DNA from: Alphaproteobacteria bacterium
Lineage (GTDB): Bacteria > Pseudomonadota > Alphaproteobacteria > Rs-D84
DNA: 64,000 nt
Direction of reading: 5' to 3'
Assembly (NCBI GenBank): GCA_009784275.1
Contig: WRCA01000002.1
Span: 4,783-68,782, forward strand
Made by a program: the position numbers and the translations under genes. Below the pieces are notes generated by a model that searched no databases, was not told the origin of the DNA, and saw only the letters and a program-made list of their open reading frames with translations. Positions 20,936 through 63,935 of the stretch are shown piece after piece (the first letter of the stretch is position 1; each line of letters opens with the position of its first letter).

Positions 20936-21460
20936 CTAGTTATTGGCGGCCAGTTGTTTCGCCTGCGCCAGCAGAGTCATCGTTTGCCCCAGCAATCCGT
21001 CCGAGAAAGTTGCCGCCAGCAATCCATCTGAATCTGCCGTTGCCAAGTAAGTTAAAAACTTCGATGCATGATCCGAATAGCTGTCCGTTGCGCGCGCGAC
21101 AGTTGAATCCAATTTTATCGCTTGGCGAATTTGTTCCAGTATGTATGGATTTGCGGCATACTCATCCATCAGTCCGCCCGCCCACTGCCAAAGTGGATGT
21201 TCCGGTGTTTGTCGTGGTGTAACGTTTGCGGCCTTGGCGATTGGGATTAAATGTTGCAGCAGGTCTTGATAGATTATTTCTGCGTTCTGGGCAACGGCAT
21301 TTGTTGCCGCGCGAGATTTCAGCGCGCTTTGCATTTTTCCAATCGCGGCGGTCTGCAGCGCCAGTTTTGTATTTAGTGCGTTTATCTTGCGCAAGGTGAT
21401 CACGATTAAAATCGCTGATAGAAATCCGACCGCAGCTGCGAGTATTGAAAATATGTCCAT
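20936..21460 (-). CDS. hypothetical membrane-anchored protein (174 aa; N-terminal TM, Ala/Gln-rich helical periplasmic part)
   Basis: ORF track; divergent from the pilus-module promoter. Confidence 0.45.
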   Translation of the reverse strand: MDIFSILAAAVGFLSAILIVITLRKINALNTKLALQTAAIGKMQSALKSRAATNAVAQNAEIIYQDLLQHLIPIAKAANVTPRQTPEHPLWQWAGGLMDEYAANPYILEQIRQAIKLDSTVARATDSYSDHASKFLTYLATADSDGLLAATFSDGLLGQTMTLLAQAKQLAANN

Positions 21461-21534: not shown

Positions 21535-21564
21535 TTGACGGCGATTCGCACAAATTGCTATAAT
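21535..21564 (+). promoter_or_regulatory. sigma70 promoter TTGACG-18-TATAAT
   Basis: Read directly; about 30 nt upstream of the 21597 start with AAGGAAGG RBS. Confidence 0.65.
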
Positions 21565-21596: not shown

Positions 21597-22418
21597 ATGT
21601 TCCGAAAGTTCTTAATTTTCGCGCTTTTCGCGACAGCGTGCGGTTATGTTTTTGCGTCAGAATATGCGCCAGTATGGCCCGCCCCAGGCGATGAAGCGGA
21701 TATTCAGGTCATTAATGTCCCGATGGATTTCGATCCGGCCAGTGGTGTCGGAAACGAATTTTATTCAGATGATGCGGATAATGTTCGCATAGTTTCAAAG
21801 ATTGGCGCAGACTTGGTTGTTGAAAATAATTTCAATATGGCCGGCCGCGGCGAAGGCTTTTGGTCCGGCGGCGCTGATTTGACCCAGATATACCAAGCAC
21901 CTCCCGGATTCAATATGTATGAAGGTCAGGCAGAAATGCCGTTGATGCATGCCGAAATGATGGAAGATGATGGCGGTGCGGTTTTGGCTATGTCCCGATC
22001 CGACAGGGATAGAAGAAGCGCGAGAAGTCTTGATGCCGCAGGTGTGTATGCTGGCGGCAGGGCATCATCCGGCATGTTTATAGGGTCAAGCGATTCCGGT
22101 GATGATTTTGAATTCGAAGTCGAAGATTCTGCGGACCTTGGCAAAGCCGGCGCGGCAAAAGATCAGGTGCGCAGCTGGGTTGTTGCATCAGGACAGACTT
22201 TGCGGTCAGTTCTGCAAGAATGGTGTGATAAAGAAGGCTGGGATTTGGTGTGGAATACCGCGCGCGAATATCCAATTGCCGCATCTGCTGTGTTCAAAGG
22301 ACGCTTTATGGATGTATCAAGCGCATTGGTACGCAACTTCAGCCGCGCTGATCCCATTCCGTATGCAAAGTTTTACAAAGGCAACCGCGTTCTAGTTGTA
22401 ACAACTAATGAAGAATAA
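21597..22418 (+). CDS. secreted protein with TcpQ-like C-terminal domain (putative secretin partner/pilotin)
   Basis: Signal peptide; acidic low-complexity middle; C-terminal VASGQTLRSVLQEWCDKEGWDLVWN block reminiscent of the TcpQ/BfpG family; immediately upstream of the secretin. Confidence 0.5.
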   Translation: MFRKFLIFALFATACGYVFASEYAPVWPAPGDEADIQVINVPMDFDPASGVGNEFYSDDADNVRIVSKIGADLVVENNFNMAGRGEGFWSGGADLTQIYQAPPGFNMYEGQAEMPLMHAEMMEDDGGAVLAMSRSDRDRRSARSLDAAGVYAGGRASSGMFIGSSDSGDDFEFEVEDSADLGKAGAAKDQVRSWVVASGQTLRSVLQEWCDKEGWDLVWNTAREYPIAASAVFKGRFMDVSSALVRNFSRADPIPYAKFYKGNRVLVVTTNEE

Positions 22419-22452: not shown

Positions 22453-24009
22453 ATGAAAAAATTATTAAAACCAAGTTTACTTACTTTGGGCTTTGGGCTT
22501 TTGGCAGTGAGTTTGCTTTTTGGTTGCGCGAAAAAAGAAAGCGCGCAAGTCGCGGCAACTGTGGATCAAGATTTTATAAATGCTCATGAAGCTTTCGAGT
22601 TGTCCAAAGGTCCAAAAGCGCGGGTTTCCAATGATACGATTTCCACCAGCGAAGGCGTATGGTTGGGCAACAGGTCGACCATATTAGAACATAGAAATAA
22701 TCTGCCTGCGGAATTTGAAGACGATACAGGAATTACGATCATGCTGACCGAGCCTGTATCCTTGCAAGTCTTAGCCAATAATATTTATTCCATAACCGGA
22801 ATTCCGGTGAAAATAGACAGCCAAATAAACGCGGAAAAATTAAAGAAGACCATGGGGGTCGCTTATACAGGCAGGCTGTCGGGGCTGATGACCCAGGTTG
22901 CGACTGACTTGGATTTGCTGTGGTACTATGACAAAAGCAGCATTGTGTTTTATGAAACCGAAACGAAAACATTCACGCTTTTTGCGCTGGGGACGGATGT
23001 AAGTTATCAATCCAGCGTTCGCACGGAAGATGGTAATCAAGTTTCTCTGGAATCTAACTTGCGCGAATGGGAAGAAGTTGAGCACACATTGGAATCCATC
23101 ATAGGTGGCAACGGTGATGCGAAATTTACTGTATCACGCTCTTTGGGAACAATCACGGTTACGGCGCCCCCGTCGGTTCAAGCGCGTGTGGGCGACTATA
23201 TTAACAAACAGAACAAACGCTTGTCACAATTGGTGGCCATTGATGTAAAAGTTTTACAAGTATCGATTCAAAATTCATCGGCGTTTGGGTTGAACCTGGG
23301 CGCAGCGATCAGCACGGTTTCGGGATTGAATGTTGTGGCCAGTCCGACGACCCCGGTCAGCTCTCCGGAAGTAAGCGCGTTAAGTGTTGCGGTTCTTGCA
23401 ACCAGCGGCAGCTTGTCCAATCTTGATGGCAGCCGCGCACTGATAGAAGCATTGGCAAAGCAGGGCAAGATTTCCCTTGTCACGAATGTCGGCGTAACAA
23501 CCCGCAATAATCGTATCGCACCTGTATCAAATACTCGCAGCACCGGATATATCAAACGATTCGAATCGCGTAACTTTACTACGGTTGAATCCAGTACCGT
23601 TGATCAGGCTGATTTGGAAACAGGATTCTCGATGCAGCTGCAGCCGAATATATTGGAAAATGGAAAGATTCTGTTGCTTTTCAGAATGAGCGTGCGCGAG
23701 CTGATAGCGATGGGAACAACTAGAATCGGCGAAGTGACATTGCAATTACCTGATGTGGAAGAACGCAGCTTTATGCAGGAAGTTGTTATGGAATCCGGAC
23801 AGATGCTTGTGTTGTCGGGCTTTGAAAGACAAACGAATAATGATCAACGCTATGGGCTGGGTGATCCGAACTTTATGGCGTTGTCTGGGTCACGCGAATC
23901 CAGCAGCAATCGTGATGTGCTGGTTGTGATGTTGACGCCGCAAGTGCTTGTTTCCCCGATGGATGCTGAAAGAAGTATACAGCAACACTGGGGCGCCCCG
24001 CTTAATTAG
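22453..24009 (+). CDS. lipoprotein secretin (type IVb pilus / T2SS-type outer-membrane channel)
   Basis: Lipobox LLFGCAK; C-terminal secretin domain (VAIDVKVLQVS...; VLVVMLTPQVLV). Confidence 0.8.
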   Translation: MKKLLKPSLLTLGFGLLAVSLLFGCAKKESAQVAATVDQDFINAHEAFELSKGPKARVSNDTISTSEGVWLGNRSTILEHRNNLPAEFEDDTGITIMLTEPVSLQVLANNIYSITGIPVKIDSQINAEKLKKTMGVAYTGRLSGLMTQVATDLDLLWYYDKSSIVFYETETKTFTLFALGTDVSYQSSVRTEDGNQVSLESNLREWEEVEHTLESIIGGNGDAKFTVSRSLGTITVTAPPSVQARVGDYINKQNKRLSQLVAIDVKVLQVSIQNSSAFGLNLGAAISTVSGLNVVASPTTPVSSPEVSALSVAVLATSGSLSNLDGSRALIEALAKQGKISLVTNVGVTTRNNRIAPVSNTRSTGYIKRFESRNFTTVESSTVDQADLETGFSMQLQPNILENGKILLLFRMSVRELIAMGTTRIGEVTLQLPDVEERSFMQEVVMESGQMLVLSGFERQTNNDQRYGLGDPNFMALSGSRESSSNRDVLVVMLTPQVLVSPMDAERSIQQHWGAPLN

Positions 24010-24032
24010 TGATTTTCAAATCGGAACGCATT

Positions 24033-24091
24033 GCGCGGATTAACGGGGGCTCATGTACGCTTTTGTACACTACGCCCCCGCTAATCCGCGC
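24033..24091. repeat. 18-bp imperfect inverted repeat (GCGCGGATTAACGGGGGC / GCCCCCGCTAATCCGCGC) with nested 5-bp mini-hairpin in a 23-nt loop
   Basis: Read from sequence; 17/18 complementary; no downstream T-tract. Confidence 0.7.
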
Positions 24092-24141
24092 AGTCGGCAC
24101 AATTAATAAGAATGATTTAATTTTTTAGAAAGGAGAAAACT

Positions 24142-24615
24142 ATGTTTTACAAAATCGGATTTTTTGTTTTATTAGCAATCGTTATTGCGGGGGTATTTGT
24201 ATTTATACGCAGCAATCCTATGAAAAACGAGGGCGCGGCCAGCTGGACGGAATTCTATTCCAATGCGCCCGAGGAAACTATGAAGTTCCTTTCCGACAAT
24301 TTCGGAATCAAATCTGAAAAATTTGCCGACGGGGCAGAGAACAATGGTATGGATTATTTCAGCTTGAAAGCAAAAGGTCAATTTTGGCCGTTCGCCGGTG
24401 TCATGGATAATACTAAATTGCCAGTCGAAGGAAAAGTACCGCCGCATACAATGGTTTATTTGACTGTGAAAGATTATGATGCCACTCATGCGAAGATTGT
24501 TGCCGCTGGGGCGAAACCATTATTGGAAAGTCAATATGCGGCCGGTATGAAGTTCGGAATTTATGAAATTCCTGGTGGATTAACAATCGGTGTCGCACAA
24601 TATGGTGTGAAATAA
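24142..24615 (+). CDS. membrane-anchored VOC/glyoxalase-fold-like protein (157 aa)
   Basis: N-terminal TM; C-terminal MVYLTVKDYDATHAKIVAAGAKPL... beta-alpha-beta-beta-beta-like pattern. Confidence 0.45.
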   Translation: MFYKIGFFVLLAIVIAGVFVFIRSNPMKNEGAASWTEFYSNAPEETMKFLSDNFGIKSEKFADGAENNGMDYFSLKAKGQFWPFAGVMDNTKLPVEGKVPPHTMVYLTVKDYDATHAKIVAAGAKPLLESQYAAGMKFGIYEIPGGLTIGVAQYGVK

Positions 24616-24708
24616 AAACCGCGTCTGGGGGCGTAATTTTTATATTTTCATATTTTATTGTATTTTTTACTTGGAGTTTTTTCCTTTTTGTAATAAAATA
24701 ATCTCGTT

Positions 24709-25206
24709 ATGAGAGAGGAATTTTCACGTAAGTTCGCAATTTGTTTTGTTTCAGGCGCATTATTCGCGATGCCGTCTTTTGCGGACGAACCCCTCAAGGT
24801 TGCAAGCAAGCAATATGTTGATAGCATAGTGACGGTTTTGTCACAGCAACCGGATTGGAATCAGACAAATATAGGCAAACGCGATTATATAAAGAACAAG
24901 CCGACACTGGGCACCGCATCCGCTGCTGATACTTCTGACTTTGCAACTGTGACCCAGGGTACAAAGGCTGACACTGCGGTTCAGCCCGCGGCATTAAATA
25001 ATTATATTCCCATCTCGCAAAAAGCTGCTGCAAACGGGGTTGCATCGCTGGATGTTGGTACGAAAGTTCCGATTGCGCAGTTGCCAACAGGCACCAGCGC
25101 CACAACCATCGCAATGGGGAATGATTCCAGGTTCGATGCCGTGCCGACTTCGCAGCCTGTTGGCACCGCCCCCAGTGGATACGCTTGGATTTATTTGGAG
25201 TTATAA
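24709..25206 (+). CDS. secreted protein with phage-tail-fibre motifs (165 aa)
   Basis: Signal peptide ...AMPSFADE; motifs KRDYIKNKPTLG and ASLDVGTKVPIAQLP that resemble the YNDLxxKP and GKIPxxQLP blocks of phage tail fibres. Confidence 0.6.
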   Translation: MREEFSRKFAICFVSGALFAMPSFADEPLKVASKQYVDSIVTVLSQQPDWNQTNIGKRDYIKNKPTLGTASAADTSDFATVTQGTKADTAVQPAALNNYIPISQKAAANGVASLDVGTKVPIAQLPTGTSATTIAMGNDSRFDAVPTSQPVGTAPSGYAWIYLEL

Positions 25207-25230
25207 CAACCGTCGCATATGTGGCGATTT

Positions 25231-26085
25231 TTAATCAAGGGTTGCGTTTGCAAGACTGCCCGATCTTTTGAAAGCTTCTAATACATCTGCAGAAAGGGTA
25301 AATGATGGGACAGCATCAACTGCTGTCGCCGTAAATGTCGGTGTTCCGCCGCTGGTTTCAGTGCGCCCTTTCGAGAAAATACATGATTCGAAGTCAACTT
25401 GCGATGAAGAAATTCCCCCGCACTCTATGAAAGCAGACGCTGGGATTTTCAAGATAGTTCCGGCTGGTGCAAACGGTACCGCAGATACAGAAAGGGTTGG
25501 GGTGGTCGTCGGTGTTGTTGCTATACTTTCACAACCTGTCTTGGCGGAGTTCAATTTATAACCGCCTTTGCAGTCAAAGCTCCAGCAACCTGAACCGCGC
25601 CTTTCTGTCGCATTCGCCGGGAGACTTGCGACCGAGCTTGATACATCGTTGCACAATACCCTTTTCCCTTTCCATAAAGTAAAGCGGCTCATCCTGGGGC
25701 TGCATTCGCAACACTTCGCGACATAGGGGAATCGTAAATGCTCCGTTTGGTTAAGCTCATGCAGAATTTTATTGGGATTAGAAACAATCTGGCCACGGAT
25801 ACATTTAATTTCATCATTATTATATCTAGTTGTATAAAATTCAGTAGTTTTTGTTACCCCACCCATCATACTGTTATCTTTATCCGCAGCGATCACATCG
25901 AAGTTTTGACCCGTATGCATTATATTTCCATCTTCAAATCCGCCGCAGTATGAAAAACTTGTGCATACTGTAAGATCATTCTTTATGCTTATCAAATCGG
26001 AAGGAGTCAAATTTCCCGCGCACATTCCATCCATCGGCGCAAGTGCCATTAAAATTAAGAATATCAGGAGTTTATTTTTTAACAT
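25231..26085 (-). CDS. secreted Cys-rich, Thr/Pro-linker protein (284 aa)
   Basis: Signal peptide; 17 Cys; TTPTTTPT linker. Confidence 0.5.
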   Translation of the reverse strand: MLKNKLLIFLILMALAPMDGMCAGNLTPSDLISIKNDLTVCTSFSYCGGFEDGNIMHTGQNFDVIAADKDNSMMGGVTKTTEFYTTRYNNDEIKCIRGQIVSNPNKILHELNQTEHLRFPYVAKCCECSPRMSRFTLWKGKRVLCNDVSSSVASLPANATERRGSGCWSFDCKGGYKLNSAKTGCESIATTPTTTPTLSVSAVPFAPAGTILKIPASAFIECGGISSSQVDFESCIFSKGRTETSGGTPTFTATAVDAVPSFTLSADVLEAFKRSGSLANATLD

Positions 26086-26184
26086 TTCCTCTTTCCACTG
26101 GGTTGATTATACAAACAAATAATTTTTCAGGCAATGAGATATGAGGCTTAATATTAAATATATAATATATCCGTCAAATAAAAT

Positions 26185-26213
26185 ACAGGGGCGAATTATC
26201 ATTCGCCCCTGTG
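26185..26213 (-). terminator. intrinsic terminator for rpsT (CACAGGGGCGAATGATAATTCGCCCCTGT + U-tract on the minus strand)
   Basis: Hairpin plus T-tract directly 3' of rpsT. Confidence 0.7.
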
Positions 26214-26226
26214 TGATTCAAATTTT

Positions 26227-31565: not shown

Positions 31566-31937
31566 ATGAATCACGAAGATACTATTTGTAATGGTTGTTT
31601 AAATGCGAAAATACCTAGATTTGGCTGTGGCGCGAAACTTGGTTATTCATGCGGATATAATTTCAGAAACTTGTCTGAATCCAAACTGTCCTGTACTGAT
31701 AAAAAGATTTACCTCGGGACGTCGTCATATTGTAACTATGGCGGCGGGCATTTTGGCAATTTTAAAAATAATTTTCCAGAGCCTTGTGTTAATTGTCAAT
31801 CAAACCAATATTCTGCCGGCCCGGGCGAAGACCGGATTGATTATCATGACTGTGTGCATCCGGAAGTAACTTTCTTCATGATAGAAGACCTGAAGGCAGG
31901 GCGTTTGGAAATATGTCCGTTTCAGAGCGTAAAATAA
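31566..31937 (+). CDS. hypothetical Cys-rich small protein (123 aa, 14 Cys)
   Basis: ORF track. Confidence 0.45.
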   Translation: MNHEDTICNGCLNAKIPRFGCGAKLGYSCGYNFRNLSESKLSCTDKKIYLGTSSYCNYGGGHFGNFKNNFPEPCVNCQSNQYSAGPGEDRIDYHDCVHPEVTFFMIEDLKAGRLEICPFQSVK

Positions 31938-31947
31938 GGATACGAAG

Positions 31948-32319
31948 ATGAGATATAATTCGCCTGAAGAAAAAGTAACAAAGAGAATAAGAAATTGGGG
32001 CGTGGGATTATTTGCCACCGGTGTCATTGCATTTTTTGTTGCGATCGGGCTTGATATAGTCGGCCAGCAAAATGAGATGGATGCGAAACTTGCAAAATTA
32101 GAAACGGGCGTTTCTGACGGTATGTTCTTGAGGGGGGTAGAAGACTCATTTGATATCGCTTATAGAGAAGATATGAAAAAAGTAGCTAAAAATTTATCTG
32201 AAAAATCTGAAAAGCAAAGAACTGCCGCATTGTGGACTTTGTATTCAAGCCTTTTTCTGATGGGCACGGGCGGGACAGGGCTTTTTATCGCACATCAACG
32301 CAAAAAGAATGGGATGTAG
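31948..32319 (+). CDS. hypothetical membrane protein (2 TM)
   Basis: ORF track; hydrophobic helices. Confidence 0.45.
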   Translation: MRYNSPEEKVTKRIRNWGVGLFATGVIAFFVAIGLDIVGQQNEMDAKLAKLETGVSDGMFLRGVEDSFDIAYREDMKKVAKNLSEKSEKQRTAALWTLYSSLFLMGTGGTGLFIAHQRKKNGM

Positions 32320-32323
32320 GGAA

Positions 32324-32611
32324 ATGAAGAATTTTAAAAATTATGCACTTATCTTATTCGCCAGCTTGATTATGTCGGGTTGTGCTGATTTATGTAAAAA
32401 TCTAGATACATCAATAAAAGTCGAAGAAGAAGCATATAACGATTATAAAGAGAGCTATGAAATGCTGATGGGTGAAAAAGCAGCAACTAATAATCCAAGA
32501 ATGATACAATTTTATGATGGACAAGCTAAAAACGCTGAATTCCAAATGAAACAAGCACGAGAAAATATAAGAGCATTTAAGAAAACGAAAAAAGATTGCA
32601 ACTGTAAATAA
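32324..32611 (+). CDS. small lipoprotein (IMSGCAD lipobox), ends ...KKDCNCK
   Basis: ORF track trimmed to MKNFKNYALILFASLIMSGC. Confidence 0.45.
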   Translation: MKNFKNYALILFASLIMSGCADLCKNLDTSIKVEEEAYNDYKESYEMLMGEKAATNNPRMIQFYDGQAKNAEFQMKQARENIRAFKKTKKDCNCK

Positions 32612-32623
32612 AAAAGGTAGATC

Positions 32624-32908
32624 ATGAAAAACAGAAATTTGGTTAATAATGTGAAGAGTTTTGTATTGCTTACATTAATCGATGCAGCAGCGCTTGTTCC
32701 GGTTATTTTATTTCCTTGTAATGGTGCTATATCAAAAGGTGCGCTTATTGCGCTTTGCATAGGAACTCCGTTAGTTTCCGGTGCTATGACGCAAGGACTT
32801 ATTTCAATTGGGGGTTTAACTGACACTGTTGCTTCGGGGTTTGATGCTGTTTTTATAAACCCTGTAAAAAAACTGGCTAATAAAATTTATAGCGGAAAGC
32901 CGAGATAA
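32624..32908 (+). CDS. small membrane protein (94 aa)
   Basis: ORF track; two or three hydrophobic helices. Confidence 0.45.
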   Translation: MKNRNLVNNVKSFVLLTLIDAAALVPVILFPCNGAISKGALIALCIGTPLVSGAMTQGLISIGGLTDTVASGFDAVFINPVKKLANKIYSGKPR

Positions 32909-44982: not shown

Positions 44983-45011
44983 AAAAAATCCCGCGTGTGC
45001 GGGATTATTTT
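44983..45011. terminator. terminator AAAAAATCCCGC-GTGT-GCGGGATTATTTTT
   Basis: Downstream of the giant fibre gene. Confidence 0.7.
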
Positions 45012-48000
45012 TATCTGGTAATCAGTTCCCAGAAGAAACCCTTTGGCGCCGTCGATGGAGTATACGCGCAGTTTGCAGTACTAGGAGGAGTGGTGCCAGG
45101 AATATAACCAATTCCAAGTCCAGTTGAGGGAAGATTAGGACAATATTGTCCATAGTTCAATGAACATGATACGTTGTTTCCATCGCATGCAAAGGGAACC
45201 TTTGGTATAAGACCATTCGAACCACCATTACCTGCCGAGGTTTCAGCAGTCGCAACTGGTGGAACAAATCCAATCGCTTGCCAGTTGGTTCCATCGTAAA
45301 TAAACTCATAAACAGCAGCGTTTAATGGATTGTTTGCGCTAACTGCAGCGTCATTTACAAATATGGGTCTGGCGGTAAGATTGACGCCACTGGCGGTAAC
45401 ATTTAAGGTTGCAGCAGCAGTCGCGGTGCTATGAATCTTCGCAACCACGCGTCTGCCAGTTGCCAGAGAAGGTATGATCTTTGATGTGGCAAGAGTATAT
45501 GTTGGTGCAGTTCCAAGAGTAGTTCCGTCAAGGTAGTTGAATATTGGATCGCTTTCTGGCATCAGCTCCCAAGCGGCCCCGTTATATACGAAATTATAAG
45601 TTTGTCCTGCACGCAACAGACCCGCTGCAATCGGGGCAGACCCCATATACTGAATTGTTTTTGCACCAGTGATGTTATTTATATTAATTGTTGATCCGCC
45701 GGTATTTGTATTGATGAATGTTGCTACTAGATGGGAACCTTTGGTCAGCATATCAGCGGTGAAATTTGTGAATCCATTTGCTGTCAAAGCGTAACTGTTT
45801 GTGCCGGATGCTGTTCCAGTAAATACGTTATCAGCAGTACCAATTATTTTGGCATTCCAATTAGTTCCATCATATGTAAATGAATATGTCGTACCTGCTA
45901 TCAATAAATTTGTAGTGCTTATAGCTGCCCCATTTTGAAATACCGGTCTGGGGGTTTGTCCACCTACGGATAAAGTTGTAGCGGCAGAAGAATTAGCATG
46001 CAGGGTAGCGAATACAACGGCACCCGATACCTGATCATTTGCGGTGAAGGCCGGGGCAAGAAAACTGGGAGAGCCGGTCGCAATAGTAAGCGCAGTGGCT
46101 GATCCGCCAGTTAATATTCCATTGAATGCCCTGGTAAGATCAGGCTTGTTAAGCAAATCATTATAACTTCCCGTCTTTGAAACTTGATGAAGTGTAATAT
46201 TACCACTCATCAATTCACCAGCACTGGGGGTTTGAGTACCTGTTGCATTAGTAATCAAAGTACCTGCTGGACCAATTGCACCTTGGTTTCCCTGGTTACC
46301 TTGCTGGCCGTTTGTACCAGCTGCGCCCTGATTGCCTTGCTGACCGTTCGTACCAGCTGTACCTTGATTACCTTGTTGACCATTAGTTCCAGCAGTACCT
46401 TGATTCCCTTGATTACCCTGGTTTCCTTGTTGTCCATTCGTACCGGCCGTACCCTGATTACCTTGATGGCCTTGATTACCTTGTTGTCCATTGGTTCCGG
46501 CAGTGCCCTGATTTCCTTGGTGACCCTGGAAGCCCTGGTTACCTTGATTCCCTTGTTGACCGTTGGTTCCGGCAGTACCTTGATTTCCCTGCTGTCCATT
46601 CGTGCCAGCTGTTCCCTGATTACCCTGGTGCCCTTGATTTCCCTGCTGTCCATTCGTGCCAGCTGTTCCTTGATTCCCTTGATGGCCCTGGAAGCCTTGA
46701 TTTCCCTGGTTACCCTGTTGACCATTCGTACCGGCCGTACCCTGATTACCTTGCTGTCCATTCGTACCGGCTGTGCCCTGATTTCCTTGATTGCCTTGGT
46801 TCCCCTGTTGTCCATTAGTTCCAGCAGTACCTTGATTCCCTTGATTCCCCTGGTTTCCTTGTTGTCCATTCGTACCGGCCGTACCCTGATTACCTTGATG
46901 TCCTTGATTACCTTGATGTCCTTGATTACCTTGTTGTCCATTGGTTCCTGCAGTCCCCTGATTCCCCTGTTGACCGTTTGTGCCGGCTGTACCTTGATTA
47001 CCTTGACTTCCTTGGTTGCCTTGCTGTCCATTAGTACCTGCGGTACCCTGATTTCCTTGGTGTCCCTGGAAACCCTGGTTGCCCTGATTCCCTTGCTGAC
47101 CGTTGGTTCCTGCTGTTCCTTGATTGCCTTGATGTCCTTGGAATCCCTGGTTGCCCTGATTACCCTGTTGGCCGTTGGTTCCTGCTGTTCCTTGATTCCC
47201 TTGATGGCCCTGGAAACCTTGGTTACCCTGTTGTCCATTAGTACCGGCTATACCTTGGTTCCCTTGCTGGCCGTTAGTACCGGCTGCACCTTGGTCTCCT
47301 TGGTTGCCTTGCGGACCATAAGAACCGTTGCCGTAAATTGTGACTGTGCCATCAGAAGCAGATGTGACAGTTACTGCCCCTGTACCTTTAATTTGGTTAG
47401 CAGATGTTACATTTCCACTTTCCACATGATTTAAATATGGATCGGTTGTAGCCCTGTTTACCAGAGCATTTGGGCCGGTAGTGGTATCAGTAAAAACAGA
47501 TATAGAACCATTTACAAGTTCTACATTCCCAGGTGTCCATAAGGTTATGCCAGGTTGATCGGCAATGAATCTGTATACTCGCCCATCTGTATAACGTACC
47601 AAGTCTCCAATAAAATAGTCTGATGTTATACTGAAAGCAGGAACATTTGTAGTGTCAAGTTTTTTCGCATGCCAACGTTTTGTTGTGGCGTCATATGTAA
47701 ACGAATATTTAGAGCCTGGGACTAATGGATTTGATGGGCTAACAGTTGATCCATTTTGGAATATGTTATATGAGTCGGTGTTATTGACATTCAACATGAG
47801 ACCTGACCAGAGACTTCCAGGAGGCATTGCGTGCAATGTAGCAAATACGACGGTTCCGTGCACAAGGTCATCTGCGGTAAAAGTCGGGTAAGTTATTAAG
47901 CTGTAGGACGGCAGAGTTCCGCTTGTTTTGTCCCCATTGAATGCCCTTGGCGCTGGGGGGCCGATGACAAGCGAGACATGTGCCATATCCCAAGCGCCGG

Positions 48001-48286
48001 CCGGATGCGCAGTAGTAAACCTATATACGCTTCCATTATAGACAACATGATCGCCAACAGCATATGCTGTGCCGGTAGAGAAATTAGGAACCCCAGTAAT
48101 TTTTTGACCTGACCCATCTGTCGCATATATTGCAATATTACCAACATTTGCTTGAGAGGTTCCAGATACGCTTGTTTTTCTCTCCACATAATTCATAGAT
48201 GTAATAATGTCAGTACCCGCCGAAAGTGCCGGCGTCGAAAACAACGCAATAATCAGCGCCGATATGCTGACTTTAGAGGCTTTCAT
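45011..48286 (-). CDS. giant secreted collagen-like / phage-tail-fibre-like protein (1091 aa)
   Basis: Signal peptide; about 117 Gly-X-Y triplets (GTAGTNGQQGNQG...); SYNDLLNKPDL tail-fibre motif; four copies of a roughly 70-aa domain ending Y(S/N/E)F(T/V/I)Y(D/N)G(T/A)(N/A)W; Cys-rich C-terminal tail. Confidence 0.8.
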   Translation of the reverse strand: MKASKVSISALIIALFSTPALSAGTDIITSMNYVERKTSVSGTSQANVGNIAIYATDGSGQKITGVPNFSTGTAYAVGDHVVYNGSVYRFTTAHPAGAWDMAHVSLVIGPPAPRAFNGDKTSGTLPSYSLITYPTFTADDLVHGTVVFATLHAMPPGSLWSGLMLNVNNTDSYNIFQNGSTVSPSNPLVPGSKYSFTYDATTKRWHAKKLDTTNVPAFSITSDYFIGDLVRYTDGRVYRFIADQPGITLWTPGNVELVNGSISVFTDTTTGPNALVNRATTDPYLNHVESGNVTSANQIKGTGAVTVTSASDGTVTIYGNGSYGPQGNQGDQGAAGTNGQQGNQGIAGTNGQQGNQGFQGHQGNQGTAGTNGQQGNQGNQGFQGHQGNQGTAGTNGQQGNQGNQGFQGHQGNQGTAGTNGQQGNQGSQGNQGTAGTNGQQGNQGTAGTNGQQGNQGHQGNQGHQGNQGTAGTNGQQGNQGNQGNQGTAGTNGQQGNQGNQGNQGTAGTNGQQGNQGTAGTNGQQGNQGNQGFQGHQGNQGTAGTNGQQGNQGHQGNQGTAGTNGQQGNQGTAGTNGQQGNQGNQGFQGHQGNQGTAGTNGQQGNQGHQGNQGTAGTNGQQGNQGNQGNQGTAGTNGQQGNQGTAGTNGQQGNQGAAGTNGQQGNQGNQGAIGPAGTLITNATGTQTPSAGELMSGNITLHQVSKTGSYNDLLNKPDLTRAFNGILTGGSATALTIATGSPSFLAPAFTANDQVSGAVVFATLHANSSAATTLSVGGQTPRPVFQNGAAISTTNLLIAGTTYSFTYDGTNWNAKIIGTADNVFTGTASGTNSYALTANGFTNFTADMLTKGSHLVATFINTNTGGSTININNITGAKTIQYMGSAPIAAGLLRAGQTYNFVYNGAAWELMPESDPIFNYLDGTTLGTAPTYTLATSKIIPSLATGRRVVAKIHSTATAAATLNVTASGVNLTARPIFVNDAAVSANNPLNAAVYEFIYDGTNWQAIGFVPPVATAETSAGNGGSNGLIPKVPFACDGNNVSCSLNYGQYCPNLPSTGLGIGYIPGTTPPSTANCAYTPSTAPKGFFWELITR
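46259..47314. repeat. near-perfect tandem DNA repeats (units of about 45-63 nt) encoding the Gly-X-Y collagen-like region
   Basis: Repeated units such as ggttaccttgattcccttgatggccctggaagccttgatttccctg are visible by eye; they generate long spurious antisense ORFs. Confidence 0.8.
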
Positions 48287-55352: not shown

Positions 55353-57129
55353 AAATTTTGCAATTATTGCTCATATCGATCATGGAAAGTCGACTTTGTC
55401 TGACCGGATTATCGAATACTGTGGTGGGTTGGAATCGCGCGAGATGAAGGCACAAGTCTTGGACAGCATGGATATCGAACGCGAACGCGGAATTACAATC
55501 AAAGCGCAAACCGTTCGCCTTAACTACAAAGCGAAAGATGGTCATACATATCAATTGAATTTGATGGATACGCCCGGGCATGTGGACTTTACTTATGAAG
55601 TATCGCGGTCGTTGGCGGCATGCGAAGGCGCGCTGTTACTGGTGGATGCTACGCAGGGCGTTCAAGCGCAGACTTTGGCAAATGCCTATCTGGCGATTGA
55701 TAATGATTTAGAAATTCTTCCCGTGCTGAACAAGATTGATTTGCCTTCCAGCGATGTTTGTTCCACACGTGATCAGATTGCGGATGTTATTGGGCTGGAT
55801 GCGTGCGACGCGCTGTGTGTTTCTGGAAAAACGGGTGAGGGCGTATCAGAGTTACTGGAAACAATAGTGCAGAAATTACCAGCGCCGCATGGAAATGTGA
55901 ATGCGCCGACACGGGCGCTGTTGGTGGATTCTTGGTATGATTCTTATTTGGGCGTTGTGGTCTTGGTGCGCGTGGTCGATGGCGCGTTAAAGCGTGGGCA
56001 AAAAATTAAATTCATTGCAACCGGTGCGGAATATAATATTGATAAAATCGGATACTTTACGCCGAAAATGGTGAATGTCGATACTCTGCACGCGGGCGAA
56101 GTCGGATTTATTATCACAGGCATGAAGACGATTCATGATTGTAAAGTCGGTGACACCATAACAGATTCAAGGGCGGAAAATATTCCTCCATTACCGGGAT
56201 TCAAGCCATCCATTCCTGTTGTGTTTTCTTCATTCTTTCCGGTAGAAGCGGATGATTATCCGACGTTGCGTGACAGCGCGGAAAAATTAGCGCTGAATGA
56301 TGCCAGCTTTGTATTCACTGTGGAAAAGTCATCTGCGCTGGGATTCGGATTACGCTGCGGGTTCCTTGGTCTGCTGCATATGGAGATTATTTCGGAGCGT
56401 TTAAGCCGAGAGTTTAATCTTAATCTTATTAATACGATTCCATCGGTGTTGTATAAATTGCACTTGCGTGGCGGAGAAATTATCGACTTGGAGAATCCCG
56501 CCGACATGCCTGATCCGGGGCGGATCGATTTTATCCAAGAACCTTGGGTGCGCGCGACAATCATGCTGCCAGAACAATACATTGGCGGCATTATGGCGCT
56601 GTGTTCGGAACGCCGAGGGATTCAGGAAAATATGAGCTATGTTGGGCGGCGCGCGGTTTTGACTTATCGTCTGCCACTGGCAGAAATAGTATTTGATTTT
56701 TATGATCGCGTGAAGTCATTAACATCCGGATATGCAAGTTTTGATTATGTGCTGGATGGATATGAAACCAGCGACCTTGTAAAAGTTTCTGTTTTGGTGA
56801 ATGAGGAAGTTGTAGAGCCTTTGTCATTCTTGTGCCATCGCAGTTTTGCGGAAAAGCGCGGCCGTCAGATTGTAGAAAAATTGAAGGATTTAATTCCTCG
56901 GCATCAATTCAAGATTCCTCTGCAGGCGGCGATCGGCGGAAAGATAATTGCGCGCGAAACCATCGCGGCATATCGTAAAGACGTAACAGCAAAATGCTAT
57001 GGCGGGGATATTTCCCGCAAACGTAAATTGTTGGAAAAACAAAAAGAAGGCAAAAAGCGCTTGCGTTCATTCGGCAATGTCGAAATCCCGCAAACCGCGT
57101 TTATAAATGCTTTGAAGGTTGGAGATTAA
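55336..57129 (+). CDS. lepA: elongation factor 4 (LepA)
   Basis: 597 aa; N-terminal [18 protein letters not shown]-domain and LepA C-terminal domain. Confidence 0.95.
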
Positions 57130-57595
57130 ATATATAGGGGGGAATATATATGAAACAAAAGGAAAAAAAGTGGGAATCGTAAGAATCATAAAGGCCGCAG
57201 TAAATTACTATCACGCAGAATCAAAATATCTTGATGCCTCAAGCAATTTGGAAAATGCCCGCCGTAAGATAATAGCCCCGATTGAAATAGTTAACGGGGA
57301 AGACTTTAATCGCTATAAGTCCGGAAATCATGACCGGCGCAAATATTACTTTTGCAAATATCCGATTTGTCATAAAGAGCTTTGGACTGTCGGGGATCAG
57401 GAAGCGTTCCATTTTAATCGTCATGATCTTGTTTGTGGAAATTTTGAAGACGGGAAGCCTTGTGAAAATAAAGATTGTGTAACTCGTCAAAAAGACAACC
57501 ATAAATATCAGACATGTTACAGCAATTATACCGCGGCCAAGACGCACAAGCAGAGATGCTGGAAGGCTATATTTACCAGAAACCCGAAAAAATAA
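57119..57595 (+). CDS. hypothetical Cys-rich protein, paralog A (ends [12 protein letters not shown])
   Basis: ORF track; the true start may be GTG at about 57169. Confidence 0.5.
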
Positions 57596-57607
57596 GAGGG
57601 ATAAAGG

Positions 57608-58009
57608 ATGAAATTTATAGAAACCATAAAAGACTACTTTTCCGCAAGGACCGCTTATCAGATCGCTTTGGGCAAGTTGGTAATTGCTGGTTATGAAATA
57701 AGAGGGTATCAGGACGTTTCCGAAGAAGAATTCAGAAGCTATAAGTCCAGAAAACAAAAACGAGATCATTGCATACATGTCGTTAATTATATAGAGGATA
57801 AGGATGATGGGGAATATAGGTGGTTTGAATCTCACGAATTGTTTTGCTACTGTGAAAATTTTGAGGGCAAGAAATTGTGTAAAGATAAAGAGTGCCCAGG
57901 CCATAAAAACTATCGTAGACACCACAGATGTTACAACAATTATATCAAGGCCGAGAAACACATGAAAGAATGCTGGAAGGCTATATTTACCAGAAATCCG
58001 AAAAAGTAA
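57608..58009 (+). CDS. hypothetical Cys-rich protein, paralog B (ends [12 protein letters not shown])
   Basis: ORF track; AGAGGG RBS. Confidence 0.5.
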   Translation: MKFIETIKDYFSARTAYQIALGKLVIAGYEIRGYQDVSEEEFRSYKSRKQKRDHCIHVVNYIEDKDDGEYRWFESHELFCYCENFEGKKLCKDKECPGHKNYRRHHRCYNNYIKAEKHMKECWKAIFTRNPKK

Positions 58010-58011
58010 GA

Positions 58012-59013
58012 ATGTCGCATCAATTTTTCTTTTCACCGCATATTATTGGAAGCTTGCCTGTGCCAGCGACTGGCTTTGATGTGGTGCAAGATATTGCAGA
58101 ACCACGCTTGCGCTTGTATATAACTTCGCGCGGGATTAAGACTTTTTTTACACGCAAGCGGGTTCGCGGGCGCGACGTTCGTATAATTATCGGCCGCTTT
58201 CCTGATGTTTCCGTAGAAGATGCCCGTAATGCGGTTTCGGAAAAGATCGCGGAATCCGCCGCACCGGTTAAAGTTCGCCGCAATCGTATCGTTTTCGACA
58301 GATTATTTGCCATTTATCTTTCCCGCAAAGTCAACAGGACCGAAGAAAGCCTGATGAAACTGAAACGCACCGCATCGCGTCATTGGGCATCCTTGATGCA
58401 GCGAGAAGTTGCAGATATCACTTCGGATGATCTGGCAGCGATACATGAAAAGATTTCCGAAACTGCTGGCATTGCGACCGCAAACCGCATGCTGGAAATT
58501 TTAAAGAGCATGTTCAAGTTTGCAATAGAGCAGGGACATATAACCAAAAATCCTGCTGCCGATCTGGAGAAATTTACCGAAAATCGCCGTCATCGTGATT
58601 TAACCAATGAAGAGTTTTCGCGTCTTATGAACGCCATCAAGAAAGAAAAGAATTATACTCTACGCTCGGCTTTCCTGATGCTGGTATTTGGGTTTGCCCC
58701 AAAGTCTGCTATTTTTGCCATGCGCTGGCGAGATTTTGATTTTAACAGTGATACCTGGCTGGATCGTCCCCTGTCCGACCCGGCGGTTGTATTATTGCGG
58801 AATGTTCCTCAATCTGGAACTTGGGTGTTCCCCAGTCGCGGACGGCACCTGACTGATCCGCGCAAGGCTTGGGCGGGTCTGGTGCGCAAGGCTGGCTTAT
58901 TGGATGTTCAAATGAACGATATTTACAAGCATTTATCCCGAAATCTTGCTTGGTCCGCCGATCGGGAGCAATTAAGGGCGAATATGAACGAGGTAATTGA
59001 CCATTTGTTATAA
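58012..59013 (+). pseudogene. tyrosine recombinase/integrase remnant (N-terminal SAM-like plus partial catalytic domain, truncated before the Tyr nucleophile)
   Basis: Integrase-like blocks (LTNEEFSRL, WRDFDF, VFPS, HxxR) present; Box I Arg replaced (GFAPK); the ORF ends about 20 aa before the expected catalytic Tyr. Confidence 0.5.
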
Positions 59014-63014: not shown

Positions 63015-63935
63015 ATGAAAAAAACTTTTTTAATAGCGCTGGGCGTTGGAATGTTTTCCTTGCCCATTGCCCATGTTTCTGCCGCAAATACTGTGACGAA
63101 AACTTATTCTGGCGAAGGGGTTAAGGTCATAAATAACTTTAATTTGGCCGCCGAACCGATTCGGCCTGCTGCCGTTTACGCTGCGCCAACGCCGGTCTAT
63201 GTTGCGCAACCTGTGCCGATGTATACGCAAGCTCCGCCGCCTTATGCCGTGCCAGTAGCTATTGATCAAGACGAAGTTCGTCCGGCAGTGATAAGACGGG
63301 TAGAGGAACCGGAACGCGACTGGTATGCTGCGATCAAATACGTTCATACTCTTGCGACATTTACTTCTACACATCATACGGACGGGGTTTACTGCGTAGG
63401 TGGAAAGTACTGTGTTGATCATTTCAATCTTGTGCCGATGATGGGATTCGCGTTGTCTGCTGGAACAGTATACGGCGATGATTGGCGGTTCGAATTGGAA
63501 GCAGGATATACAGGACAATATTCTGATTCCGACGAAGACGTGCGATTCGGAATTTCCGCGCCTTATTTGACGTTCAATGCTCTTTATAATTTCGGCGGTG
63601 CAAAAAATAGCGGATTTTATTTCGGACCGGGAATAGGATTTGCATTCCCAACGACCGAGATTACCGCGGGTGATACGCTGGTGCATTTCTTGCATAAAGA
63701 TTCGCGCAGGACTGTATTTTCTCCGATGTTGGCGGCGCTGGCCGGTTTCCAATGGAAATTCACCGAACAGTTCGCTTTGGATATCGGGTACAAGTTCTAT
63801 ACCTTCAGCGGAACGGAGCATTCGCGCGATTTCCAGATAACATTAACCCCGCCTACTACGTCGCATAAGTTTACGAATAAGACAGGTTGGTTGGTAAATA
63901 ATGCGTTCAGCATCGGGTTGAGGTATTACTTCTAG
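63015..63935 (+). CDS. outer-membrane beta-barrel protein/porin-like (signal peptide; ends ...GLRYYF)
   Basis: Signal peptide ...AHVSAAN; C-terminal aromatic; extended -10 (TGTGATATAAT) promoter upstream. Confidence 0.55.
   Translation: MKKTFLIALGVGMFSLPIAHVSAANTVTKTYSGEGVKVINNFNLAAEPIRPAAVYAAPTPVYVAQPVPMYTQAPPPYAVPVAIDQDEVRPAVIRRVEEPERDWYAAIKYVHTLATFTSTHHTDGVYCVGGKYCVDHFNLVPMMGFALSAGTVYGDDWRFELEAGYTGQYSDSDEDVRFGISAPYLTFNALYNFGGAKNSGFYFGPGIGFAFPTTEITAGDTLVHFLHKDSRRTVFSPMLAALAGFQWKFTEQFALDIGYKFYTFSGTEHSRDFQITLTPPTTSHKFTNKTGWLVNNAFSIGLRYYF

What the first reader, a model, noticed from the sequence alone, without database searches (positions are those of the whole stretch)
24709..25206. Small secreted protein carrying phage-tail-fibre signature motifs, outside any prophage
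A signal peptide is followed by KRDYIKNKPTLG and ASLDVGTKVPIAQLP, motifs typical of phage tail-fibre repeats. The same YNDLLNKPDL-type motif recurs in the 1091-aa fibre protein at 45011-48286. No capsid, portal, terminase or baseplate genes are nearby. The gene lies just downstream of the secretin module. The simplest reading is a domesticated tail-fibre fold used as a host-cell adhesin or surface fibre.
Basis: partly seen in the sequence, partly recalled or inferred. Interest (0 to 1): 0.6.

Follow-up and report, generated by a model that had tools for sequence, protein, structure and literature searches.

The report
Secreted mini-fibre built from phage repeats
A small exported protein of an uncultured, tiny-genome gut bacterium is made of repeat units otherwise found in phage tail fibres, set between two family-specific end pieces; it is the shortest of at least ten secreted fibre-like proteins in that genome and most likely belongs to the cell's own surface-attachment equipment, not to a virus.

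Summary
ORF 24709-25206 (+) encodes a 165-aa protein with a classical Sec signal peptide. Its internal motifs match phage tail-fibre and minor-tail families (PHROG E down to 8.7e-10). No phage structural genes lie in the window or out to the ends of the assembled contig held. The source is an Alphaproteobacteria MAG related to Candidatus Enterousia (order Rs-D84, genomes under 1 Mb). The protein belongs to an unannotated family of 79-646 aa. All members have a signal peptide, an N-cap ([IV]AS-x-x-YVD) at the mature N-terminus and a C-cap (GNDxRF..P.G.PP.G.xFIWF) at the C-terminus. The middle is a variable set of phage-type repeats. Cap-only members give no phage hits. The same MAG encodes at least ten secreted fibre-like proteins. 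One paralogue has the same N-cap plus a knob whose predicted fold matches phage tail-fibre tips. In 12 of 80 related species a family member directly follows the PilN-type secretin, so that linkage is recurrent but facultative. The best reading is a Sec-exported, probably trimeric cell-surface fibre, comparable in principle to Bdellovibrio MAT fibres but not a member of that family. Trimer formation, surface display, adhesion and use of the secretin are all inferred. The target's own fold could not be modelled (pLDDT 53).

The parts
24709..25206 (+). Gene for the 165-aa secreted mini-fibre (NCBI locus tag FWE50_01195, annotated as hypothetical protein)
   Evidence: ORF. It is 100% identical to P0001 from an Alphaproteobacteria MAG. 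It matches tail-fibre PHROGs.
24709..24783 (+). Sec (type I) signal peptide, residues 1-25, with predicted cleavage SFA|DE
   Evidence: Read directly from the sequence. An equivalent signal peptide with an A-x-A-type site occurs in all family members.
24793..24843 (+). N-cap, residues 29-45 (LKVASKQYVDSIVTVLS), a family-defining motif at the mature N-terminus
   Evidence: Alignments. The N-cap HMM recovers family members and paralogue P0009. The 18-codon stretch ADEPLKVASKQYVDSIVT (residues 25-42, which contains the motif) shows 10 synonymous and 0 non-synonymous differences against P0009. Cap-only members give no PHROG hit.
24847..24903 (+). Repeat module A, residues 47-65 (QPDWNQTNIGKRDYIKNKP), a phage-fibre 'DW..DYIKNKP' unit
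   Evidence: PHROG matches. The same unit is repeated in many long proteins found with the profile.
24904..24987 (+). Repeat module B, residues 66-93 (TLGTASAADTSDFATVTQGTKADTAVQP)
   Evidence: It is shared at 58-93% identity with repeat proteins P0010-P0014 and P0021-P0027, some of which carry Pfam Phage_tail_C.
24988..25086 (+). Repeat module C, residues 94-126 (AALNNYIPISQKAAANGVASLDVGTKVPIAQLP)
   Evidence: tblastn hits at 65-89% identity to Streptomyces phage minor tail proteins and to the tail fibres of phages D6E and AP45. The unit occurs 5-11 times in P0002, P0029 and P0034.
25087..25203 (+). C-cap, residues 127-165 (core GNDSRFDAVPTSQPVGTAPSGYAWIYLEL, 25117-25203), a family-defining C-terminus
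   Evidence: Alignments A3 and A4 have invariant D, R, F, P and G. The C-cap HMM finds members in 13 of 80 related loci. No PHROG, Pfam or PDB match covers the last ~15 residues.
25211..25226 (+). Terminator-like hairpin plus T-run, 5 nt after the stop codon
   Evidence: Consensus scan only.
21597..22418 (+). TcpQ/PilL-like protein (context; the association is inferred)
   Evidence: Pfam TcpQ, 1.1e-18. The pair with the secretin is conserved across the clade.
22453..24009 (+). PilN-family (type IVb) lipoprotein secretin (context; the association is inferred)
   Evidence: Pfam Secretin, 7.5e-14. TIGR02520 scores 243 bits, below its cutoff of 287.65. A lipobox LLFGC is present. A family member directly follows this gene in 12 of 80 species.

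Best explanation
The gene encodes a Sec-exported mini-fibre. After signal-peptide cleavage, the ~140-residue mature chain consists of a short invariant N-cap (VASKQYVDS...), three repeat modules of kinds otherwise found in phage tail fibres and minor tail proteins, and an invariant C-cap ending ...P.G..P.G.xWIY/FIWF. It is the shortest member, in this genome, of a lineage-specific multigene family of secreted fibre proteins in Enterousia-like (Rs-D84) gut Alphaproteobacteria with genomes under 1 Mb. By analogy with the fibres these modules come from, I infer that three chains assemble into a thin fibre. The constrained N-cap would be the common docking end, and the C-cap a conserved registration or contact end. 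The number and type of phage-derived modules would set the length. I also infer that the fibre is displayed on the cell envelope as attachment or spacer equipment for a bacterium that must live off partners. Shown here: export signal, modular composition, phage origin of the modules, family membership, cellular and vertically inherited context, and purifying selection on the N-cap. Inferred: trimer formation, surface location, adhesive role, and any use of the adjacent PilN-type secretin as the outer-membrane route or anchor.
For: The gene and signal peptide are. The internal modules match phage tail families (the profile gives 4268 hits, mostly long multi-repeat proteins). The family has both caps at lengths of 79-646 aa, with modules varying in number and order: 24 of 184 fetched proteins carry both caps. 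Minimal members of 83-105 aa are essentially caps only. The context is cellular: housekeeping neighbours (sufBD, rpsT, plsY, dprA, dnaA) and the same slot in a lineage where the secretin is 72% identical but the fibre only 31%. It is a multigene family in the same MAG: P0009/FWE50_01965 (212 aa), P0043/FWE50_00055 (646 aa), tandem fibres of 335 and 324 aa, collagen-like proteins of 237, 267 and 1091 aa, and proteins of 334 and 407 aa, all with signal peptides. Against the paralogue, the N-cap shows 10 synonymous and 0 non-synonymous changes in 18 codons, whereas the next 24 codons show 11 non-synonymous changes. The paralogue with the same N-terminus carries a beta-sandwich knob (pLDDT ~75-85) that matches predicted phage tail-fibre and collagen-like proteins at E 1e-7 to 7e-5. 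There is a precedent for signal-peptide-bearing phage-like trimeric fibres on a bacterial surface in Bdellovibrio MAT proteins (PMC10769870). The host clade lacks the TCA cycle, respiration and standard transporters, which is consistent with dependence on partners (PMC12306168). A family member directly follows the secretin in 12 of 80 species, with gaps as short as 23-28 nt.
Against: There is no direct evidence of trimerisation. The AlphaFold monomer model is poor (pLDDT 52.8) and its fold search is empty. No family member seen combines the caps with an obligately trimeric collagen stretch. The target has no distal knob, and its C-terminus is conserved rather than variable, which is unusual for a receptor-binding tip. 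No route across the outer membrane is established: no pilus or T2SS ATPase, platform or pilin genes occur in the window or its flanks. Most relatives lack a fibre next to the secretin, and several family members sit elsewhere in the genome. In the window a 157-aa gene and a weak hairpin separate the secretin from the fibre gene. No expression data exist.
Confidence: 0.55

Rival explanations
1. It is an accessory or cargo of the secretin. On this reading the protein is functionally tied to the PilN/TcpQ outer-membrane channel, as its exported substrate, a plug or gate partner, or a fibre anchored in the channel, and it is not a free-standing adhesin.
For: A family member is the first gene after the secretin in 12 of 80 species, with gaps of 23-69 nt in 6 of them. 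The same slot elsewhere holds other signal-peptide-bearing proteins. The secretin pair is core in the clade (214 species-level hits), yet no pilus genes were seen around it, and type IV pili were not reported for this order (PMC12306168), so it needs some other client.
Against: About 27 of 58 informative loci have an empty slot. Family members P0002, P0003, P0009 and P0043 are encoded away from any secretin. Two fibre clusters in the same MAG instead follow an OMP beta-barrel gene. The slot may simply be a permissive insertion site next to a conserved gene.
Confidence: 0.2
2. It is a degenerate remnant of a prophage or gene-transfer-agent tail fibre, with no current cellular role.
For: The internal modules are homologous to phage tail proteins. 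An integrase-like gene lies 33 kb away. Alphaproteobacteria often carry GTAs (general knowledge).
Against: The protein has a Sec signal peptide, which virion proteins lack. The reading frame is intact and the caps are conserved across species at 31-59% identity. The syntenic position among housekeeping genes is conserved. The N-cap is under purifying selection. No capsid, portal, terminase, tape-measure or baseplate gene occurs in the window or its flanks.
Confidence: 0.04
3. It is a periplasmic or envelope structural strut (Lpp-like or nap-like spacer) with no ligand-binding role. The phage repeats would serve only as a length-setting rod between two docking ends.
For: Both ends are conserved while only the length and content of the middle vary. 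The target has no knob. Minimal members of 83-105 aa are too short to reach far beyond the envelope.
Against: The length range of 79-646 aa within one family, and even within one genome, is hard to reconcile with a fixed envelope spacing. A paralogue with the same N-cap carries a phage-type distal knob. The fast divergence (31% against 72% for the secretin) is more typical of exposed proteins.
Confidence: 0.15
4. It is an anti-phage decoy, a secreted mimic of tail-fibre shafts that interferes with phage adsorption or assembly.
For: The only support is the resemblance to phage fibres and a weak PADLOC hit (DpdF model, 20.8 bits).
Against: The PADLOC hit lies on the repeat region, and there are no dpd or other defence genes nearby. 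The modules shared with phages are shaft repeats, not receptor-binding parts. No known defence system works this way (general knowledge).
Confidence: 0.03

Closest known systems
Bdellovibrio bacteriovorus MAT (mosaic adhesive trimer) fibre superfamily (PMC10769870)
   Same: Both are bacterial, not viral, genes with a signal peptide. Both are built from phage-tail-fibre-like elements. Both have many paralogues per genome sharing a conserved N-terminal end with differing remainders. In both cases the organism depends on contact with other cells, and the route to the surface and the N-terminal docking partner are unknown.
   Different: MAT proteins are roughly 600-1100+ aa and have a conserved ~130-aa beta-rich domain after the signal peptide and variable C-terminal tips, many with an S74 chaperone-protease. 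Here the N-terminal element is only ~17 residues, the C-terminus is conserved rather than variable in the cap-to-cap subfamily, the sizes go down to 79-165 aa, and no S74 domain was detected. No sequence relationship was shown.
Phage minor tail and tail-fibre proteins carrying 'GVASLD..GKVP..QLP' and 'DW..DYIKNKP' repeats (PHROGs 1446, 7389, 13892, 14726; Streptomyces phage minor tail proteins; tail fibres of phages D6E and AP45)
   Same: The three internal modules (residues ~47-136) show sequence homology to these proteins.
   Different: The phage proteins are long (200-3000 aa), lack signal peptides, sit in tail-gene clusters, and do not carry the N-cap or the terminal C-cap. No phage record covers more than 33% of the protein.
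Collagen-like bacterial surface fibres with constant ends and a variable-length rod (Bacillus BclA, Streptococcus Scl1/2, Legionella Lcl)
   Same: The design principle is the same: an exported chain with constant terminal elements and a repeat region whose length varies between alleles and paralogues. A collagen-like representative is encoded in the same window (45011-48286; NCBIfam SclB/Lcl-type hits below cutoff).
   Different: The target has no G-X-Y repeats, no LPXTG motif and no C1q-like head. The comparison is by analogy and from general knowledge.
Type IVb pilus PilL/PilN (TcpQ/TcpC) outer-membrane module
   Same: The neighbouring genes are a TcpQ-domain protein and a PilN-family lipoprotein secretin.
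   Different: The target is not a pilin, because it has a type I and not a prepilin signal peptide. No other pilus genes are nearby.

Membership tests
Phage tail fibre / minor tail protein (as a virion component) | Sequence match to tail-fibre or minor-tail families | tested here: met
   phrog_1446 at 8.7e-10, phrog_7389 at 2.6e-8 and others, plus tblastn hits to annotated minor tail proteins. Only residues ~26-151 are matched, and no phage record covers more than 33%.
Phage tail fibre / minor tail protein (as a virion component) | Encoded within a phage, prophage or GTA structural gene cluster | tested here: not met
   The neighbours are sufBD, TcpQ, a secretin, rpsT, plsY, dprA and dnaA. There are no structural phage genes in the 64-kb window or in the flanks out to the ends of the contig held.
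Phage tail fibre / minor tail protein (as a virion component) | No export signal (assembled in the cytoplasm) | tested here: not met
   A type I signal peptide is present and conserved across the family.
Curated repeat families (Pfam Phage_fiber_2, PTR, Phage_tail_C, Collagen; NCBIfam) | Score above the curated threshold | tested here: not met
   The target gives no Pfam family at E<=0.1 and no NCBIfam family at E<=0.01.
Bdellovibrio MAT superfamily | Signal peptide | tested here: met
Bdellovibrio MAT superfamily | Conserved ~130-aa beta-rich domain immediately after the signal peptide (PMC10769870) | tested here: not met
   The mature chain starts with a ~17-residue N-cap and the repeat modules begin at residue 47, so there is no room for such a domain. 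No direct sequence comparison with MAT proteins was possible.
Bdellovibrio MAT superfamily | Many paralogues sharing the N-terminal element, with diverse C-terminal parts | tested here: met
   The N-cap is shared by the 165-, 212-, 324-, 335-, 646- and probably the 407-aa proteins of the same MAG.
Bdellovibrio MAT superfamily | Trimeric fibre located on the cell surface | not testable with these tools
   Only monomer prediction was available (pLDDT 52.8), and there are no localisation data.
Type IV pilin / pseudopilin (substrate of a PilN-type system) | Prepilin (class III) signal with G|F/M-x-x-x-E and an N-terminal hydrophobic helix in the mature protein | tested here: not met
   The signal is type I with S-F-A|D, and the mature N-terminus DEPLKVASKQYVD is hydrophilic.
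Trimeric autotransporter adhesin | C-terminal YadA-like beta-barrel membrane anchor | tested here: not met
   There is no Pfam hit, and the C-cap of ~29 residues is too short for an anchor domain.
New cap-defined family (this report) | Signal peptide, N-cap [IV]-A-S-x-x-Y-V-[DNQ] at the mature N-terminus, and C-cap G-[ND]-D-x-R-F-(8)-P-x-G-(4)-G-x-x-[FW]-[IV]-[WY] at the C-terminus | tested here: met
   The target matches the family, N-cap and C-cap HMMs. 24 of 184 fetched proteins carry both caps.

The most novel reading that the evidence does not exclude
Ultra-reduced gut Alphaproteobacteria (Rs-D84/Enterousia) may use an orphan PilN/TcpQ secretin, without a pilus, as the outer-membrane exit or socket for a repertoire of Sec-exported fibres. 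These fibres would have invariant N- and C-caps as docking pieces for the channel or for tip proteins (the Gly-rich and Cys-rich partners encoded next to them), and interchangeable phage-derived repeats to set their reach. That would be a previously undescribed secretin-dependent, non-pilus surface-fibre system for attaching to partner or host cells.
Probability: 0.12. Interest if true: 0.8.

Novelty: new variant of a known kind. Interest (0 to 1): 0.5.

Why it matters
Enterousia-like bacteria are widespread in human and animal guts. They have genomes under 1 Mb without respiration or standard transporters, and nobody knows what they attach to or live from. A genome that small spending at least ten genes on secreted fibre proteins made from phage parts points to contact with other cells as central to its biology. 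It also gives concrete candidates (the cap-defined family, its partners, the orphan secretin) for finding the partner. More generally, it is a second, independent case after the Bdellovibrio MAT proteins of bacteria building their own surface fibres from phage tail-fibre modules. Here the architecture is different and minimal: two short caps with swappable repeats between them. The family has no Pfam or NCBIfam model.

Tried and rejected
1. Fold assignment of the target failed: AlphaFold2 with an 8-sequence alignment gave pLDDT 52.8, and Foldseek against viral models gave nothing below E=2.9.
2. Sequence searches against the PDB with the protein and with the family profile found nothing.
3. 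A scan of IMG/VR viral contigs with the protein found no relative.
4. A word-indexed search with the C-cap alignment returned only 6 short hits and was not useful as a census.
6. The idea that the C-cap is a T4-fibritin-like foldon was rejected: hhalign probability 1%.
7. The idea that the 1091-aa collagen protein belongs to the same family was rejected as unsupported. Only a post-hoc regular expression (IITSMNYVE after its signal peptide) and one NKP motif link them, and the family, N-cap and C-cap HMMs do not detect it.
8. The PADLOC 'DpdF' hit (20.8 bits) was judged spurious.
9. The convergent 284-aa Cys-rich neighbour has no relatives in the other loci, and the Gly-rich and Cys-rich 'partner' family is absent from the window.
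10. No family member combining the caps with collagen repeats was found, so this route to proving a trimer failed.

Full report
**The feature.** ORF 24709-25206 (+) encodes 165 aa. The first 25 residues (MREEFSRKFAICFVSGALFAMPSFA|DE) form a classical type I signal peptide, read directly from the sequence. Pfam and NCBIfam give no hit. PHROGs gives 13 families, almost all annotated tail, minor tail or tail fibre (phrog_1446 at 8.7e-10, phrog_7389 at 2.6e-8). tblastn against 50,697 GenBank phage records hits 60 records, including minor tail proteins of Streptomyces phages and the tail fibres of phages D6E and AP45. These hits cover only mature residues 60-106, no record covers more than 33% of the query, and neither end of the protein is matched. 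A family profile run against 1.84 billion representative proteins finds 4268 hits at E<=1e-3, mostly long proteins matching in many stretches. The motif observation is therefore real and far beyond chance. The phage-like signal belongs to the internal repeat modules.

**Source and context.** The protein is identical to FWE50_01195 of an Alphaproteobacteria MAG. The neighbours are housekeeping genes near the replication origin: gyrB, dnaJ, sufC and sufBD on one side, and rpsT, plsY, dprA, dnaA and dnaN on the other. Directly upstream are a TcpQ-domain protein (21597-22418) and a lipoprotein secretin of the PilN / type IVb family (22453-24009; TIGR02520 at 243 bits, below its cutoff). A 157-aa gene with an N-terminal hydrophobic segment and only a sub-threshold glyoxalase-family hit lies between the secretin and the target. 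I annotated the rest of the window and the 5-6 kb beyond both ends, up to the ends of the assembled contig held. I found no capsid, portal, terminase, tape-measure or baseplate gene, and no pilus or type II secretion ATPase, platform or pilin.

**The lineage.** A genome-collection scan with the secretin returned 214 species-level relatives at 70-76% identity. The 80 loci kept are labelled Candidatus Enterousia, Alphaproteobacteria or 'Rickettsiales' and come from animal and human guts. Two are complete chromosomes of 0.72 and 0.96 Mb. Enterousia belongs to the uncultured order Rs-D84, which has genomes under 1 Mb and lacks the TCA cycle, respiratory chains, standard transporters and flagella. 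Type IV pili were reported only for a different lineage in that study (PMC12306168).

**The family.** Homologues are few and short. Alignment shows a constant frame:
- a signal peptide cleaved at an A-x-A-type site;
- a mature N-terminus that starts almost at once with [DEN]-[IV]-A-S-x-x-Y-V-[DNQ] (the N-cap);
- a C-terminus G-[ND]-D-x-R-F-x-x-[IV]-x-(4)-P-x-G-x-(3)-G-x-x-F-I-W-F-[NEQ] (the C-cap).

Between the caps, the number, type and order of modules vary. P0002 has five GVASLD..QLP units, P0007 has the NKP unit after the QLP unit, and P0043 has more than ten units. Minimal members of 83-105 aa are essentially signal peptide, N-cap, a short linker and C-cap. These give no PHROG hit to either cap, and all PHROG hits of the 646-aa member are internal. 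The caps are therefore family-specific as far as can be detected, and the phage-derived material is the filling. No solved structure matches by sequence.

**Evidence that it is a maintained cellular gene.**
- In a lineage where the secretin is 72%, TcpQ 50% and the divergent 174-aa membrane protein 57% identical to the window's, the orthologous slot sufBD-174aa|TcpQ-secretin-[fibre]-rpsT-plsY-dprA-dnaA holds a family member that is only 31% identical. The gene is retained but evolves fast.
- The same MAG encodes paralogue P0009/FWE50_01965 (212 aa, between tatA and ftsK), whose signal-peptide end and N-cap are identical in protein sequence to the target's. At the DNA level, these 18 codons differ at 10 synonymous and 0 non-synonymous sites, whereas the next 24 codons carry 11 non-synonymous differences. 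This indicates strong purifying selection on the N-cap.
- P0043, a 646-aa protein with both caps, is FWE50_00055 of the same MAG. It lies in a tandem cluster: OMP beta-barrel, a 237-aa collagen-like protein, a 335-aa N-cap fibre, a 324-aa N-cap fibre, the 646-aa fibre, and a 1005-aa Cys-rich protein. Every complete protein in the cluster has a signal peptide.
- Just beyond the right end of the window, the OMP beta-barrel gene at 63015-63935 heads a second such cluster: a 267-aa collagen-like protein, a 334-aa fibre-like protein, and a 407-aa protein with IVASKSYVDK.
- Counting the 1091-aa collagen/CBM5_12 protein at 45011-48286, this genome of roughly 1 Mb encodes at least ten secreted fibre-like proteins.

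**Fold evidence.** The target's monomer model is poor (pLDDT 52.8), as expected for a chain that normally folds as part of an intertwined oligomer. Foldseek on it is empty. For paralogue P0009, the C-terminal 125 residues model as a beta-sandwich (pLDDT ~75-85, pTM 0.59). That domain matches 14 predicted viral proteins at E<=1e-3 and probability 1.0, among them an Aeromonas phage tail fibre and an E. coli phage collagen-like protein, but no PDB entry significantly. At the family level, the N-cap proteins therefore also carry phage-type distal knobs.

**Relation to the secretin.** A C-cap HMM finds family members in 13 of the 80 species-level loci. In 12 of them the member is the first gene after the secretin, with gaps of 23, 27, 28, 28, 50 and 69 nt in six cases, which is operon-like. 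The slot between the secretin and rpsT is hypervariable. Of 58 loci where both genes are visible, about 27 are empty. About 10 hold a C-cap fibre, which several loci show with a Gly-rich ~325-aa protein starting a few nt after its stop (3 nt where measured, in L012). About 15 hold large Cys-rich or other signal-peptide proteins. Other family members are encoded far from any secretin. In the window, a promoter-like site (11 of 12 matches) precedes TcpQ at 21535-21564, a weak hairpin follows the 157-aa gene at 24621-24634, and a hairpin with a T-run follows the target at 25211-25226. Co-transcription cannot be decided from sequence. The linkage is recurrent but facultative. It may reflect function, with the secretin as exit or socket for envelope proteins encoded next to it, or merely a permissive insertion site.

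**Mechanism proposed.**
- Shown: Sec export signal, modular build, phage origin of the modules, two constrained caps, multigene family, cellular inheritance.
- Inferred: three chains assemble into a thin fibre like the phage fibres that use the same modules. The N-cap, shared by paralogues with different distal parts and under strong purifying selection, is the common docking end. The C-cap is a conserved registration or contact end, perhaps for the partner proteins encoded downstream in other genomes. The repeats set the length. The fibre is displayed on the envelope of a bacterium that depends on partners.

The closest functional precedent is the Bdellovibrio MAT superfamily: signal peptide, conserved N-terminal domain, phage-like trimeric shaft, variable tips, 21 paralogues, and surface location shown experimentally (PMC10769870). 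The present family is not a member, because it lacks the ~130-aa N-terminal domain and, in the cap-to-cap subfamily, has a conserved C-terminus instead of a variable one. Rivals are a secretin-bound accessory or cargo (0.2), a non-adhesive envelope strut (0.15), a phage or GTA remnant (0.04) and an anti-phage decoy (0.03).

**Verdict.** This is a real, unannotated, lineage-specific family of secreted mini-fibres that reuse phage tail-fibre repeats between two novel caps. It is one element of a large fibre repertoire in an ultra-reduced gut alphaproteobacterium. I rate it a new variant of a known kind (bacterial surface fibres built from phage fibre parts), with interest 0.5. The adhesin role, the trimeric state and the dependence on the secretin remain to be tested.

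Noticed in passing
window 24010-26226; loci L015-L094 downstream of the secretin: The interval between the PilN-type secretin and rpsT is a hypervariable island across Enterousia-like genomes, ranging from 62 nt to 4.6 kb. It is empty in ~27 of 58 loci. Otherwise it is filled with C-cap fibres, Gly-rich proteins, Cys-rich secreted proteins of 463-1013 aa, or other signal-peptide proteins.
   Followed up: partly
L012:8372-9352, L010:7633-8610, L036:8266-9240, L062:8271-9248, L081:8287-9267, L084:8223-9200; L008:8810-9829; L006:8458-9677: A 'partner' family is encoded directly after the fibre gene in other genomes (3-nt gap in L012). It comprises ~325-aa proteins with 23-28% glycine and no signal peptide, and Cys-rich signal-peptide proteins. 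Both share an N-terminal motif SL[RK]xxDxxGxxYY, which recurs at the C-terminus of the 1005-aa Cys-rich protein in L095. This is reminiscent of phage fibre-plus-tip-adhesin gene pairs, but that was not tested. The family is absent from the window.
   Followed up: partly
window 45011-48286 (-): This 1091-aa secreted protein has a CBM_5_12 module, ~390 residues of G-X-Y collagen repeats, one SYNDLLNKPDL motif and four repeated ~100-aa domains. It is flanked by tolB, an acyltransferase and a CopG-type antitoxin gene, with no phage genes. It is not detectably related to the cap-defined family.
   Followed up: partly
window 63015-63935 (+) and beyond the right end (L098:10949-14265); L095:2-5412: There are two clusters in the same MAG in which an OMP beta-barrel gene is followed by several signal-peptide fibre-like genes: collagen-like proteins of 237 and 267 aa, and proteins of 324, 334, 335, 407 and 646 aa. 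The beta-barrel might be an anchor for these fibres.
   Followed up: partly
window 20936-21460 (-): A conserved 174-aa protein with one N-terminal transmembrane helix is transcribed divergently from TcpQ and the secretin. It is 56-58% identical in the distant lineage and has no Pfam, NCBIfam or PADLOC hit. It could be a third component of the secretin module.
   Followed up: no
window 57928-59013 (+) and 57119-58009: An integrase-like gene (Phage_int_M and Arm-DNA-bind_3 domains) sits with two small unknown ORFs between lepA and an acyl-carrier-protein gene followed by fabF. No other mobile-element genes were recognised, so this may be a remnant of an integrated element.
   Followed up: no
window 12758-34051: This is the replication-origin region. 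The cumulative GC skew minimum is at ~13-15 kb, next to an AT-rich kilobase (15-16 kb, 35.6% GC). gyrB is at 12.8-14.8 kb, dnaA at 28.4-29.7 kb and dnaN at 32.9-34.1 kb.
   Followed up: no
window 31566-32900 (+): Four small tandem genes of unknown function (123, 123, 95 and 94 aa) lie between a CxxCxxCC-domain gene and dnaN.
   Followed up: no
loci L015, L018, L052, L061: Public MAG records labelled 'uncultured Muribaculaceae' or 'Bacteroides fragilis' carry this alphaproteobacterial secretin locus at 71-76% identity. One is a 716-kb 'chromosome'. These are probably taxonomic mislabels or contaminated bins.
   Followed up: no
window 25231-26085 (-): The convergent neighbour is a 284-aa Cys-rich protein with a signal peptide and no detectable relative in any of the other loci or libraries searched.
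   Followed up: partly
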